Positions 2 to 39,436 of a stretch of DNA of 39,436 nucleotides are shown piece by piece; position 1 is the first letter of the stretch, and the number at the start of each line of letters is the position of its first letter. Source of the stretch: Escherichia phage vB_EcoP_Kapi1; the sequence record MT813197, one strand, 5' to 3'. The translations under genes and the position numbers were made by a program. Below the pieces are notes generated by a model that saw only the letters and a list, made by a program, of their open reading frames with translations, did not search any database and was not told the origin of the DNA.

Positions 2-17
2 ATGGTGTCCCCTGCAG
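2..17 (-). other. att core (attL/attR copy): minus strand reads CTGCAGGGGACACCAT, which I recall as the 3' end (incl. CCA) of tRNA-Arg argW; tRNA body not present
   Basis: 16-nt string seen at window edge; upstream tRNA T-arm not present so this is a partial copy as expected for a prophage junction; tRNA identity from memory. Confidence 0.5.
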
Positions 18-74: not shown

Positions 75-96
75 TATTTTACCCGCTATTTTACCC
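75..96. repeat. Tandem direct repeat TATTTTACCC x2 (75-84, 87-96), candidate Int arm-type / RDF binding sites
   Basis: Exact 10-mer repeated with 12-bp period next to att core; same TTTTACCC motif recurs in both orientations at 39278-39322 upstream of int. Confidence 0.45.
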
Positions 97-291
97 ATTG
101 GCGCGGCTTAAGAGCTTATTTTTGAATTCACAATGGTCACGATATAACCATCTTGCTCGACCGTGGATAACTTTGGCTTTTGGCAGGTCGCCGGACTTAA
201 TCCGGTCATAGATGAAGGTTTTACCAAAGCCAGTATCAGCCATGATGAATTTCAAATCAACCAGTGAATCAGGCTGTAGTTCGTGTTGCAT
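91..291 (-). CDS. xis: Excisionase / recombination directionality factor, AlpA family (TorI-like)
   Basis: 66 aa, MQHELQPDSLVDLKFIMADTGFGKTFIYDRIKSGDLPKAKVIHGRARW; matches my recollection of KplE1 TorI; GGAG RBS 8 nt upstream of ATG; adjacent to att core. Confidence 0.8.
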   Translation of the reverse strand: MQHELQPDSLVDLKFIMADTGFGKTFIYDRIKSGDLPKAKVIHGRARWLYRDHCEFKNKLLSRANG

Positions 292-332
292 GAGTGCTAT
301 CTCCGAATAGGGAATCGAACCTGCAAATCAGG

Positions 333-357
333 CAATAAAAAACCGCCATCAGGCGGC
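333..357 (-). terminator. Rho-independent terminator (minus strand) between early-left ORFs and xis
   Basis: Hairpin CCGCC-ATCA-GGCGG followed on minus strand by TTTTTTATT. Confidence 0.55.
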
Positions 358-531
358 TTGGTGTTCTTTCAGTTCTTCAATTCGAATATTGGTTACGTCT
401 GCATGTGCTATCTGCGCCCACAGCATCCAGTGGTCATAGCAGTCGTTGATGTTCTCTGCTTCGATAACTCTGTTGAATGGTTCTCCATTCCATTCACCTG
501 TGACTCGGAAGTGCATCTGTGATTTCTCCAA
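349..531 (-). CDS. Hypothetical protein (60 aa)
   Basis: ORF in early-left operon orientation; no recognisable family. Confidence 0.4.
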   Translation of the reverse strand: MEKSQMHFRVTGEWNGEPFNRVIEAENINDCYDHWMLWAQIAHADVTNIRIEELKEHQAA

Positions 532-15570: not shown

Positions 15571-15645
15571 GGGTCAGTCGTATAAAGGTCATTACGGAAG
15601 GCTGTTAACCTTCTTATCGTGGTTCGAGTCCACGCTGTCCCGCCA
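15571..15645 (+). tRNA. tRNA-Asn (anticodon GTT), one U-U mismatch in acceptor stem
   Basis: Hand fold: acceptor 6/7 bp, anticodon stem GAAGG/CCTTC with loop CTGTTAA, T-arm CGTGG-TTCGAGT-CCACG, 3' CCA encoded. Confidence 0.6.
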
Positions 15646-15650
15646 AATAT

Positions 15651-15726
15651 GCTGGTTTAGCTCCAATGGTAGAGCAGTCGCCTTGTAAGCGAATGGGTAG
15701 CGGTTCAAGTCCGTTAACCAGCACCA
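15651..15726 (+). tRNA. tRNA-Thr (anticodon TGT)
   Basis: Hand fold: perfect 7-bp acceptor GCTGGTT/AACCAGC, D-arm GCTC/GAGC, anticodon loop CTTGTAA, T-loop TTCAAGT, 3' CCA encoded. Confidence 0.7.
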
Positions 15727-25041: not shown

Positions 25042-25230
25042 ATGGCACGAACAATGCTCTATAAGCCTGGCAACATGATCACCTGTGGTCAGTTTGCTGT
25101 CGATTACATCATTGTTGATGACGAAGAAGTTAAATCTCACCTGAAAAAAGGTTGGGTAAAAACTCCTGAAGAAACCGCAACGAAGCAAAAAGTGGCTAAG
25201 GCGGAAGAAGATGGCGAAAACGAAGGGTGA
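25042..25230 (+). CDS. Hypothetical small protein (62 aa)
   Basis: ATG at 25042 with GGGAGAAG RBS downstream of hairpin; ORF-track start 25003 lies inside the hairpin. Confidence 0.5.
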   Translation: MARTMLYKPGNMITCGQFAVDYIIVDDEEVKSHLKKGWVKTPEETATKQKVAKAEEDGENEG

Positions 25231-38122: not shown

Positions 38123-39277
38123 TTACTCTTTCCCATCAAGCCAGTCCGCCCACCATTGCATCATTTCTCTGCGTTTGTCGAGATACTGAGCATGGTTGTA
38201 AATTCCACGCACGGATCCGCCGTTGGCATGTGCCAGTTGCACTTCAATAGCATCAGCGGGCCATTCGTGCTCGTTCATAATCGTGCTGAATTCATGCCTG
38301 AATCCGTGACCGCTTTCCAGACCCTCATAGCCGATTTGTTTGATCACAAGCAATACCGCGTTCTCGCAGATTGGCTTCTTCTTATCGTTGCGCCCGGCAA
38401 AAACAAACTCTGATACTGGTTTGGTGATTGAGCTTAGCGTAGTGAGAAGTTCAACCACCTGGTCCGACATCGGGACCACATGAGTTTTGCGGCCCTTCAT
38501 CACACTGGCGTCGATGGTGATAATCCTGTTTTCAAAATCGACGTTCTTCCATAGCATGGAACGAAGCTCTTTCGTTCTTAGGGCAGTGTAGCGTAAAACT
38601 TTGGTCGCAATGAGCGATACGATACTTCCTGAAAATGTTGCCAGTGCTTTGTTGAATGCAGGGATCTGGTCTGCAGGAAGAAACGGGAAGTTCTTCTTGC
38701 GGTATCCCTTCATGGCGTCTGCAAGGTCAGGTGCCGGGTTATATTTAGCCCTTCCGGTGACAATAGCGTAACGAAAAACCTCGCCGCATCTTCTGCGGGC
38801 TTTGTTGGCTCGCTCCATTGCACCGCGATCTTCAAATCTGCGGATTACTTCCAGCAGTTGCATCGGCTCAATATCCTGAATCTCAAGGCCGCCGATGATG
38901 GGTAAAATGTCGTCATCAAACATTTTGGCAAGTTCAGTTGCATAGCCTACTGACCAGACTTGCTTCTTGTGCTCGTACCATTCCTTGTAAATCGCACTAA
39001 AGGAATTGTTGTTAGACGAAGCCTTTTTCGCCTTTACCGGATCGATGCCAACCGAGATGTCTTTCCTCGCAGTCCATGCTTTATCCCTTGCCTCTTGCAA
39101 AGTCATAAGCGGATATTTTCCGACAGTCAGGATTTTCTCCTTACCGTCAATCTTGTAGCGAAGCTGCCATACCTTTTTCCCTGATACAGGGACATAAAGG
39201 TACAGGCCATTACCATCGAGTAGGCGGTATGGTTTTTCTTTCGGCTTTGCTGCTTCAATCTGCTTAACGGTGAGCAT
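38123..39277 (-). CDS. int: Tyrosine integrase, P4-type (KplE1 IntS-like)
   Basis: Start placed at MLTVKQIEAAKPKEKPYRLLDGNGLYLYV; C-terminal catalytic region HGFRHEF...RGIYNHAQY; the ORF-track start at 39313 is a GTG. Confidence 0.85.
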   Translation of the reverse strand: MLTVKQIEAAKPKEKPYRLLDGNGLYLYVPVSGKKVWQLRYKIDGKEKILTVGKYPLMTLQEARDKAWTARKDISVGIDPVKAKKASSNNNSFSAIYKEWYEHKKQVWSVGYATELAKMFDDDILPIIGGLEIQDIEPMQLLEVIRRFEDRGAMERANKARRRCGEVFRYAIVTGRAKYNPAPDLADAMKGYRKKNFPFLPADQIPAFNKALATFSGSIVSLIATKVLRYTALRTKELRSMLWKNVDFENRIITIDASVMKGRKTHVVPMSDQVVELLTTLSSITKPVSEFVFAGRNDKKKPICENAVLLVIKQIGYEGLESGHGFRHEFSTIMNEHEWPADAIEVQLAHANGGSVRGIYNHAQYLDKRREMMQWWADWLDGKE

Positions 39278-39322
39278 GGGTAAAAATCCGGTGGGTAAAA
39301 TTATTTTATCCACTTTTTACCC
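39278..39322. repeat. TTTTACCC-type motifs (GGGTAAAAA, GGGTAAAA, TTTTTACCC) immediately upstream of int start; candidate Int/RDF binding sites
   Basis: Same octamer as the tandem repeat at 75-96, here in both orientations. Confidence 0.45.
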
Positions 39323-39436
39323 GTCATGGAGTGCGGCTGTCAACGATCTGACGCGAACCATGACGAACCGTGAATATACGGAAGGCTTGATATTCAGGGG
39401 ATTTTGCGGACTTGTACGGATGGGAGCGAACTGATA

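What the first reader, a model, noticed from the sequence alone, without database searches (positions are those of the whole stretch)
39278..39322. TTTTACCC octamer repeats flank both prophage ends and abut the int start codon
TATTTTACCC occurs as a tandem direct repeat at 75-96, overlapping the xis 3' end. The same octamer appears three times in mixed orientation at 39278-39322, directly upstream of the int ATG. The arrangement suggests arm-type Int or RDF binding sites that also autoregulate int transcription, as reported for KplE1 intS.
Basis: partly seen in the sequence, partly recalled or inferred. Interest (0 to 1): 0.4.

Follow-up and report, generated by a model that had tools for sequence, protein, structure and literature searches.

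The report
Known integrase arm sites of attP
The repeated TTTTACCC words at the two ends of this phage genome are the already characterised docking sites for the phage integrase's N-terminal domain in the KplE1/HK620/Sf6 attachment site, and one of them sits on the integrase gene's own promoter, so the finding is real but ordinary.

Summary
TTTTACCC occurs 7 times against 0.85 expected, and 5 copies lie in a 255-bp span once the window ends are joined. That junction is a seamless HK620-type attP around the argW core, CTGCAGGGGACACCAT, at window 2-17.

The xis side (1-125) is 100% identical to the E. coli K-12 KplE1 attR. The int side, from the -35 box to the ATG, is 100% identical to KplE1 attL. 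Int matches IntS at 381 of 383 residues and Xis matches TorI at 66 of 66.

Panis et al. 2010 showed on that same sequence that the IntS arm-type (P') sites share TAAA. They also showed that P'1 overlaps the -10 box of PintS, that IntS represses intS about 5-fold, and that TorI binds a different word (GTTCG, GATCG, GTCCG). So the octamer is an Int site, not an RDF site.

New comparative support:
- The sites are conserved islands in 19 argW-linked loci.
- A degenerate fourth int-side site, TTTTATCC at 39304-39311, is a perfect copy in many relatives.
- A sister lineage (g341c, phiEt88) changes the word to GGGCATA on both arms in concert.

Verdict: already known, low interest.

The parts
2..17 (-). 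attP common core, the reverse complement of CTGCAGGGGACACCAT (3' end of tRNA-Arg(CCU) argW). This is where strand exchange takes place.
   Evidence: core found on the minus strand at 2-17. The core sequence is quoted in PMC2951348. Identical to K-12 attR and HK620 attP.
75..96 (+). P-arm (xis side): two direct Int arm-type sites, TATTTTACCC x2 with a 12-nt period. The octamers are at 77-84 and 89-96. The second overlaps the xis stop codon.
   Evidence: 100% identical to KplE1 attR and HK620 attP. Annotated as an attP repeat_region in HK620 AF335538. Lies at the edge of the 135-bp attR substrate that suffices for in vitro excision; the attR-IHF2 primer matches window 95-114. Conserved in Chronis and Midgardsormr38, and switched to GGGCATA in g341c and phiEt88.
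91..291 (-). xis gene, the recombination directionality factor. 66 aa, identical to TorI/HkaC.
   Evidence: ORF; 66/66 identity to K-12 TorI.
39278..39285 (-). Int arm-type site abutting the int ATG. It is the outermost P' site, in inverted orientation relative to the -10-overlapping site, and lies in the 5' UTR.
   Evidence: Mean column identity 0.87 across 19 loci.
39293..39300 (-). Int arm-type site in the 5' UTR. It forms a direct pair (15-nt spacing) with the ATG-abutting site.
   Evidence: Mean column identity 0.95.
39304..39311 (+). Degenerate fourth int-side site, TTTTATCC (one mismatch). It spans the inferred transcription start.
   Evidence: The homologous position is a perfect GGGTAAA in Pantoea, Edwardsiella, Rouxiella, Mixta, Xenorhabdus, Erwinia and Serratia loci. 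Included in the HK620 attP repeat annotation 1232-1253.
39315..39322 (+). Int arm-type site P'1, overlapping the -10 box of the int promoter. This is the copy implicated in autorepression.
   Evidence: PMC2951348 states that P'1 overlaps the -10 box. Sequence identical to K-12. Invariant GGGTAAA in all 19 loci, with mean column identity 0.97.
39314..39343 (-). PintS promoter: -35 TTGACA (39343-39338), an 18-nt spacer, and -10 TAAAAA (39319-39314). The transcription start is inferred at 39307/39308.
   Evidence: positions. One search gives the published -35 and -10 boxes and the primer-extension start at a T and an A. Mapping the start onto the window is my inference from those residues and the spacing to -10.
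39344..39368 (-). TorI (RDF) site block I3-I5: GATCG 39344-48 (I5), GTTCG 39354-58 (I4), GTTCG 39364-68 (I3). I4 and I5 mediate TorI repression of int.
   Evidence: positions; published motifs and mutagenesis; conservation.
39407..39431 (-). TorI site block I1-I2: GTCCG 39407-11 (I2) and GTTCG 39427-31 (I1).
38123..39277 (-). int gene, an IntS-type tyrosine integrase with an N-terminal arm-DNA-binding domain (aa 2-86).
   Evidence: ORF; the annotated ATG is at 39277. (381/383 identical to K-12 IntS). (Arm-DNA-bind_3, Phage_int_M and Phage_integrase domains).

Best explanation
The octamers are the arm-type binding sites of the phage attachment site attP, which becomes attL and attR after integration at argW. 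They belong to the KplE1/HK620/Sf6 recombination module. The N-terminal arm-binding domain of the IntS-type integrase binds the word YGGGTAAAA. There are two direct copies on the xis-side P arm. On the int-side P' arm there are four copies, two in one orientation followed by two inverted. The C-terminal domain binds the core at 2-17. These bridges, together with TorI bound to the GTTCG-type sites and IHF, build the intasome that carries out integration and excision. The int gene points away from the core, so its own sigma-70 promoter lies inside the P' arm. One site covers the -10 box, one spans the start site, and two lie in the roughly 30-nt leader up to the ATG. Int bound there keeps RNA polymerase off, giving about 5-fold negative autoregulation. 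TorI bound next to the -35 box adds a second repression. What is shown here: the sequence identity, the enrichment, the conservation and the co-variation. What is shown in the literature for identical DNA and near-identical proteins: site identity, the transcription start site and the repression. What is inferred: that the results transfer to this phage, that the fourth degenerate site is used, and that occlusion is the mechanism.
For: - Enrichment: 7 exact copies against 0.85 expected, with 5 in 255 bp, P about 4e-14.
- Identity to the characterised system: the xis side (1-125) is 100% identical to K-12 KplE1 attR and HK620 attP. The int side is identical to K-12 attL from TTGACA to the ATG. 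Int is 381/383 identical to IntS, and both substitutions lie outside the arm domain. Xis is 66/66 identical to TorI. Pfam Arm-DNA-bind_3 covers aa 2-86.
- Literature (PMC2951348): the P' arm-type sites share TAAA, P'1 overlaps the -10 box, the transcription start was mapped, IntS represses about 5-fold, and TorI acts through I4 and I5 with motifs GTTCG/GATCG/GTCCG.
- HK620 GenBank annotates the same repeats as attP repeat regions and the same promoter.
- Published attL and attR PCR primers match window 39255-39278 and 95-114, so both clusters lie inside the minimal in vitro substrates.
- Footprint across 19 argW-linked loci with 66-99% Int identity: arm-site columns are 91% identical against 64% elsewhere, and 30 of 10,000 random blocks reach that value.
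- Concerted switch: g341c and phiEt88 (Int about 61-63% identical) keep the core and the layout but carry GGGCATA at all six positions on both arms. The RDF-type word varies independently of this.
Against: - No binding or expression experiment was done on this phage.
- The primary footprinting papers (J Biol Chem 2007; Virology 2010) are not in the held library. The xis-side pair and the number of P' sites therefore rest on the HK620 annotation, the primer positions and comparative data, not on text I could read.
- In KplE1, single mutations of the P' sites other than P'1 did not relieve repression. P'1 could not be separated from the -10 box, so the operator role of each individual octamer is not resolved.
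- The promoter scan did not report TTGACA-18-TAAAAA, because it requires a T at the last -10 position. It reported a weaker alternative instead.
Confidence: 0.93

Rival explanations
1. The octamers are binding sites for the excisionase/RDF (Xis, here TorI) rather than for Int.
For: The xis-side pair sits at the 3' end of xis, and RDF sites are usually short direct repeats.
Against: - In KplE1 the five TorI sites are GTTCG/GATCG/GTCCG words, all on the int side between the core and the -35 box. Mutating them abolishes the TorI effect.
- These words are present and conserved in the window at 39344-39431.
- In phiEt88 the Int-type word and the RDF-type word change independently of each other.
Confidence: 0.03
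2. The repeats are by-products of promoter and leader composition or of coding constraints, with no dedicated protein-binding role. Candidate sources are A/T-rich -10-like words, the xis C-terminus, and the small attP-spanning ORF that reads GKIAGKI through the tandem pair.
For: - One copy is part of the -10 box.
- The xis-side pair lies inside two overlapping reading frames.
- The copy inside int is explained by the codons for DILP.
Against: - The same word recurs on two arms about 200 bp apart, in both orientations, and is invariant across genera while the surrounding spacers diverge.
- All copies switch together to GGGCATA in g341c and phiEt88.
- The attP-spanning ORF is broken in phiEt88, yet the repeats persist there.
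Confidence: 0.03
3. The octamers do bind Int, but int expression in this intact phage is controlled mainly by read-through from upstream promoters across attP. On this view the autoregulatory role is marginal here.
For: HK620 annotation places a cII-activated 'phage integration' promoter just upstream of xis, at the position equivalent to window 298-336. In the circular form, xis, attP and int are co-linear on one strand.
Against: In the prophage state int is separated from that promoter by the whole prophage. PintS with an identical sequence is active and autorepressed in K-12. The two modes are not mutually exclusive.
Confidence: 0.15

Closest known systems
KplE1 (CPS-53) prophage recombination module of E. 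coli K-12: IntS, TorI, attL and attR at argW (Panis et al., J Biol Chem 2007; Virology 2010; PLoS Genet 2010)
   Same: The core, the xis-side arm (100% identical), the int-side arm from -35 to the ATG (100% identical), the five TorI words, Int (381/383) and TorI (66/66). The layout is also the same: the int promoter lies inside the P' arm, with an arm-type site on the -10 box.
   Different: KplE1 is a 10-kb defective remnant. The window is a complete 39.4-kb P22-like genome whose ends join as attP. There are a few substitutions in the spacers between TorI sites.
Phage HK620 attP (GenBank AF335538), and the Sf6 and CUS-3 attP
   Same: HK620 annotates repeat regions at 1207-1232, 1232-1253 and 1441-1463 and a core at 1368-1383. 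These correspond one-to-one to the window's octamer clusters and core. The int-region DNA is 95.7-97.2% identical in these three phages (HK620 95.7%, Sf6 96.5%, CUS-3 97.2%).
   Different: HK620 also labels the copy inside int (829-839, equivalent to window 38900) as an attP repeat, and comparative data here do not support that. The 1991 Sf6 record predicts a different -10 box, which conflicts with the mapped start site.
Lambda attP arm-type sites (P1, P2, P'1-P'3) and P4 int autoregulation
   Same: A heterobivalent tyrosine integrase bridges arm-type and core-type sites, and RDF and IHF sites shape the intasome. In P4, Int also represses its own promoter by binding near the start site (established knowledge of lambda).
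   Different: The number, spacing and orientation of the sites differ (2 + 4 here). [quoted passage not shown] All RDF sites here are on the int-side arm.
Salmonella phage g341c / Erwinia phage phiEt88 attP (sister lineage at the same argW core)
   Same: The same core and the same six-site layout. This includes the tandem pair after the xis stop, a pair at -10 and +1, and a copy abutting the ATG.
   Different: The arm word is GGGCATA instead of GGGTAAA. Int is only about 61-63% identical. The RDF word also differs in phiEt88.

Membership tests
KplE1/HK620/Sf6 argW recombination module | 16-nt common core CTGCAGGGGACACCAT, derived from the 3' end of tRNA-Arg(CCU) | tested here: met
   The core is at window 2-17 on the minus strand. 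Related loci all sit next to tRNA-Arg(CCU).
KplE1/HK620/Sf6 argW recombination module | IntS-type tyrosine integrase with an N-terminal arm-DNA-binding domain | tested here: met
   381/383 identical to K-12 IntS. Arm-DNA-bind_3, Phage_int_M and Phage_integrase domains are present.
KplE1/HK620/Sf6 argW recombination module | TorI/HkaC-type RDF at the opposite side of the att core from int | tested here: met
   66/66 identical to TorI. The gene is at 91-291 (-), across the core from int.
KplE1/HK620/Sf6 argW recombination module | int promoter (-35 TTGACA, -10 TAAAAA) lies inside the P' arm, with arm-type site P'1 on the -10 box and further TAAA-containing P' sites | tested here: met
   The sequence is identical to K-12 attL from -35 to the ATG. 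Positions are and the published description.
KplE1/HK620/Sf6 argW recombination module | Five TorI sites (GTTCG/GATCG/GTCCG) in two blocks between the core and the -35 box | tested here: met
   Sites at 39427-31, 39407-11, 39364-68, 39354-58 and 39344-48, matching the description.
KplE1/HK620/Sf6 argW recombination module | Physical binding of Int to the octamers and negative autoregulation of int | not testable with these tools
   Published for identical DNA in KplE1. The primary footprinting papers are not held. Comparative support comes from conservation and the concerted word switch.
Lambda-type heterobivalent integrase attP (general kind) | Repeated arm-type words on both arms flanking a core, distinct from the core sequence and from the RDF words | tested here: met
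   Two copies on the P arm and four on the P' arm. The word is unrelated to the core and to GTTCG.

The most novel reading that the evidence does not exclude
The octamer may be one allele of an exchangeable arm-recognition code. Integrase lineages that share the argW core and the entire six-site attP layout have replaced the arm word on both arms in concert, GGGTAAAA in the window/HK620 type and GGGCATAA in the g341c/phiEt88 type. This would make phages that compete for the same attB mutually orthogonal in intasome assembly and in int autorepression. The relationship is the converse of lambda and HK022, which (from my own knowledge, not checked here) share arm specificity and differ at the core. 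A smaller open point is whether the degenerate fourth site on the transcription start and the two leader sites act as a cooperative operator.
Probability: 0.4. Interest if true: 0.3.

Novelty: already known. Interest (0 to 1): 0.1.

Why it matters
It matters little as a discovery. The sites, their reader protein and the autoregulatory circuit were described for identical DNA between 2001 and 2010, and the module is extremely common: 444 IMG/VR stretches encode a TorI relative, and all 80 that were fetched encode an identical TorI.

It is useful for annotation in three ways:
- It fixes the true att boundaries of this phage.
- It shows that the int start is the ATG at 39277, not the upstream GTG.
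- It flags that prophage callers which stop at the xis stop codon cut through the P-arm sites.

The concerted word switch in the sister lineage is a tidy natural experiment on arm-site specificity and could be tested.

Tried and rejected
- **RDF-site reading:** rejected, because TorI reads GTTCG-type words.
- **Copy inside int (38900-38907) as a distal arm site**, as HK620's record labels it: rejected. It encodes the conserved DILP, but its synonymous positions are free in 25 homologues, and the two other E. coli loci (L004, L005; L004's upstream region matches the K-12 sequence) read TTTTACCT.
- **Copy at 25154:** isolated, consistent with background (2 observed outside att against 0.84 expected). 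Not pursued beyond its context.
- **Alternative promoter ATGACG-16-AATAAT**, found by the scan and in the 1991 Sf6 record: rejected, because the mapped KplE1 start (a T and an A, 7 nt after TAAAAA) would fall just upstream of, and adjacent to, that -10 box (39300-39305).
- **GTG at 39313 as the int start**: rejected, because it lies upstream of the transcription start.
- **IHF consensus WATCAANNNNTTR:** no exact match in the att region.
- **TorI-based search of viral contigs:** returned only 100%-identical copies, so it gave no divergence information for the xis-side arm. Phage genomes found with a diverged Int were used instead.
- **Literature access:** J Biol Chem 2007 and Virology 2010 are not held, and searching the PLoS Genetics text for P' site numbers failed.

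Full report
**1. Observation**

- TTTTACCC occurs exactly at 77-84 (+), 89-96 (+), 39278-39285 (-), 39293-39300 (-) and 39315-39322 (+), and also at 38900-38907 (-) and 25154-25161 (-).
- That is seven matches against 0.85 expected from dinucleotide-preserving shuffles. None of 100 shuffles reached seven.
- The 10-mer TATTTTACCC is a direct repeat at 75-84 and 87-96 with a 12-nt period.
- Its second copy covers the last codon and the TAA stop of a 66-aa ORF at 91-291 (-).
- The copy at 39278-39285 touches the ATG (39277-39275, minus strand) of a 384-aa integrase gene.
- Five exact copies in a 255-bp span have a Poisson probability of about 4e-14. The two copies elsewhere agree with background.
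- A further copy with one mismatch, TTTTATCC, lies at 39304-39311 (+).

**2. What the region is**

The window's last bases (...GAGCGAACTGATA) and its first bases (AATGGTGTCCCCTGCAG...) join into exactly the sequence found at the attP of phage HK620. The 16-nt core published for KplE1, CTGCAGGGGACACCAT, is at window 2-17 on the minus strand. The window is therefore a complete P22-like temperate phage genome opened one base before its att core. It is a mosaic closest to CUS-3, phiv205-1, HK620 and Sf6. The 'two prophage ends' are the two arms of one attachment site.

Identity to the characterised module is very high:

| Element | Comparison | Result |
|---|---|---|
| xis side, 1-125 | K-12 KplE1 attR and HK620 attP | 100% identical |
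| int side, -35 hexamer to ATG | K-12 KplE1 attL | identical; few substitutions further out |
| Integrase | K-12 IntS | 381/383; both differences outside the arm-binding domain (aa 2-86) |
| Small ORF (xis) | TorI RDF | 66/66 |

**3. What is known for this sequence**

Panis et al. 2010 (PMC2951348) describe the following for the K-12 attL.

- The promoter has TTGACA and TAaAAa boxes, and the start site was mapped by primer extension.
- IntS arm-type sites (P') all contain TAAA. P'1 overlaps the -10 box.
- There are five TorI sites with the words GTTCG, GATCG and GTCCG, in two blocks.
- IntS represses intS about 5-fold, and TorI represses it through I4 and I5, next to the -35 box.

Mapped onto the window:

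| Feature | Window coordinates |
|---|---|
| -35 box | 39343-39338 |
| -10 box (inside GGGTAAAAA, the octamer at 39315-39322) | 39319-39314 |
| TorI I5 | 39344-48 |
| TorI I4 | 39354-58 |
| TorI I3 | 39364-68 |
| TorI I2 | 39407-11 |
| TorI I1 | 39427-31 |

The reported start residues are a T and an A, with the A 'perfectly positioned' after the -10 box. They correspond to K-12 locus positions 515 and 516, which is window 39308 and 39307. This mapping is my inference, because the paper uses older chromosome coordinates. The start then falls inside the degenerate site. The two inverted octamers lie in the roughly 30-nt leader, and the last one ends at the ATG.

The HK620 GenBank record already annotates these repeats as attP repeat regions and the same stretch as the promoter. 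The published PCR primers for the minimal attL and attR substrates match window 39255-39278 and 95-114. Both clusters therefore lie inside the DNA that suffices for in vitro excision, and the xis-side pair sits at its very edge.

**4. Independent comparative tests run here**

*(a) Phylogenetic footprint.* I compared 19 int-upstream regions from Escherichia, Citrobacter, Dryocola, Pantoea, Edwardsiella, Rouxiella, Mixta, Xenorhabdus, Tatumella, Erwinia, Serratia and Rosenbergiella, plus a Klebsiella phage. Int identity across the set is 66-99%. Of the 16 checked for tRNAs, 15 lie next to tRNA-Arg(CCU); none was found upstream in the Mixta locus L016.

- The invariant islands are TTGACA, GGGTAAA on the -10 box, the second GGGTAAA-type site, two TTTACCC copies, the ATG and the GTTCG words.
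- The -35 to -10 spacer and other spacers diverge freely.
- Arm-site columns average 91% identity against 64% for unassigned columns. Only 30 of 10,000 random sets of four 8-column blocks reach that value.
- The site that is degenerate in E. coli (GGATAAAA) is a perfect GGGTAAA in many genera. The P' arm therefore has four sites, two in one orientation followed by two inverted.

*(b) Concerted word switch.* A sister clade keeps the layout but carries GGGCATA/TATGCCC instead. It comprises Tatumella punctata, Kluyvera, Pantoea alvi and piersonii, Izhakiella and X. budapestensis.

- In the complete attPs of Salmonella phage g341c and Erwinia phage phiEt88, the switch affects all six positions on both arms. 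This includes the tandem pair right after the xis stop and the copy abutting the int ATG. The argW core is retained.
- g341c Int is 61% identical to the window's Int.
- The RDF-type word stays GTTCG-like in g341c but becomes GTWACC in phiEt88. The two word families therefore assort independently, as expected if two different proteins read them.
- Erwinia phage Midgardsormr38 and Klebsiella phage Chronis keep the GGGTAAA word on both arms.

**5. Mechanism**

The best-supported account is that of a lambda-type heterobivalent integrase. The N-terminal domain docks on the six YGGGTAAAA sites and the C-terminal domain on the core. TorI on its five sites, together with IHF, bends the P' arm for excision.

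Because int is transcribed away from the core, its promoter is embedded in the P' arm. Int occupancy of the -10, +1 and leader sites excludes RNA polymerase.

- Identity of sites and proteins is shown here.
- Binding, the start site and repression are shown in the literature for identical DNA.
- Occlusion, cooperativity among the four P' sites and use of the degenerate site are inferred.
- In KplE1, single mutations of the non-(-10) sites did not relieve repression, and P'1 could not be separated from the -10 box. The contribution of each octamer is therefore unresolved.

**6. Rivals**

- *RDF sites.* Rejected because the published TorI words differ and because the two word families switch independently.
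- *Composition or coding by-product.* Rejected by the two-arm distribution in both orientations, by conservation against diverging spacers, and by the concerted switch. Also, the attP-spanning ORF that would read through the tandem pair is interrupted in phiEt88 while the repeats persist.
- *Read-through from a cII-type promoter upstream of xis* (HK620 annotation). This may well supply Int during infection, and it complements rather than replaces the arm-site and operator role.

**7. Things that led nowhere**

- The copy inside int encodes the conserved DILP, but its synonymous positions vary freely, and other E. coli copies of the gene read TTTTACCT.
- The scan-predicted promoter, which is also the 1991 Sf6 annotation, conflicts with the mapped start.
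- There is no exact IHF consensus in the att region.
- The TorI search in viral contigs found 444 stretches encoding a relative, but all 80 fetched copies were identical, so it gave no divergence information.
- The two primary footprinting papers are not held.

**8. Verdict**

The feature is already known, being the IntS arm-type sites and PintS operator of the KplE1/HK620/Sf6 module. Interest is low. The only mildly new element is the comparative picture: four P' sites, and a sister lineage with a concerted arm-word switch at the same attB.

Noticed in passing
L164 600-915 (Salmonella phage g341c) and L165 600-915 (Erwinia phage phiEt88); also L015, L023-L026 and L030 upstream of int: A sister integrase lineage uses the same argW core and the same six-site attP layout, but the arm word is GGGCATA instead of GGGTAAA on both arms. 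The RDF-type word changes independently: it is GTTCG-like in g341c and GTWACC in phiEt88.
   Followed up: partly
window 98 to 1, continuing 39436 to about 39394, minus strand (across the circular junction): A 46-codon ORF spans the attP core (HK620 hkaB, Sf6 gene 17, g341c gene 18, Midgardsormr38 ORF36). Its ATG overlaps the xis stop (AATGGGTAA). It exists only in the excised, circular form. It is open in 5 of the 6 diverged attPs but has stops in phiEt88, so coding status is doubtful.
   Followed up: partly
window 38900-38907 (-), inside int: A sixth exact octamer, labelled an attP repeat in the HK620 record. It encodes I-L-P of the conserved DILP motif, and its synonymous positions are not conserved in homologues. 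Other E. coli copies of the gene (L004, L005) read TTTTACCT. It is probably a chance match.
   Followed up: yes
window 8-15 and 34-41: Inverted repeat TCCCCTGC / GCAGGGGA. One arm lies inside the core and the other 18 nt away on the xis side. By eye it is present in all six diverged attPs compared. It may be a core-type Int site pair or a mimic of the tRNA T-stem.
   Followed up: no
window 298-362: The stretch upstream of xis is identical to the HK620 region annotated as a cII-activated 'phage integration' promoter. It is followed at about 336-362 by a GC hairpin plus T-run on the minus strand (AAGCCGCCTGATGGCGGTTTTTT). This suggests int can be expressed by read-through across attP in the circular phage.
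   Followed up: no
window 39300-39327 (-): The consensus scan and the 1991 Sf6 GenBank record place an int promoter here (ATGACG-16-AATAAT). This conflicts with the primer-extension start mapped in KplE1, so the old annotation is probably wrong.
   Followed up: partly
L084-L163 (IMG/VR contigs): 29 of the 80 fetched viral contigs end 3 nt after the xis stop codon, in the middle of the first arm-type site. Prophage boundary calls there truncate the P arm and the core.
   Followed up: partly
window 15571-15726 (+): The phage genome carries adjacent tRNA-Asn(GTT) and tRNA-Thr(TGT) genes.
   Followed up: no
window 25154-25161 (-): A seventh, isolated exact octamer far from att (context GGTTGGGTAAAAACTCC). 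It is consistent with the background expectation.
   Followed up: partly
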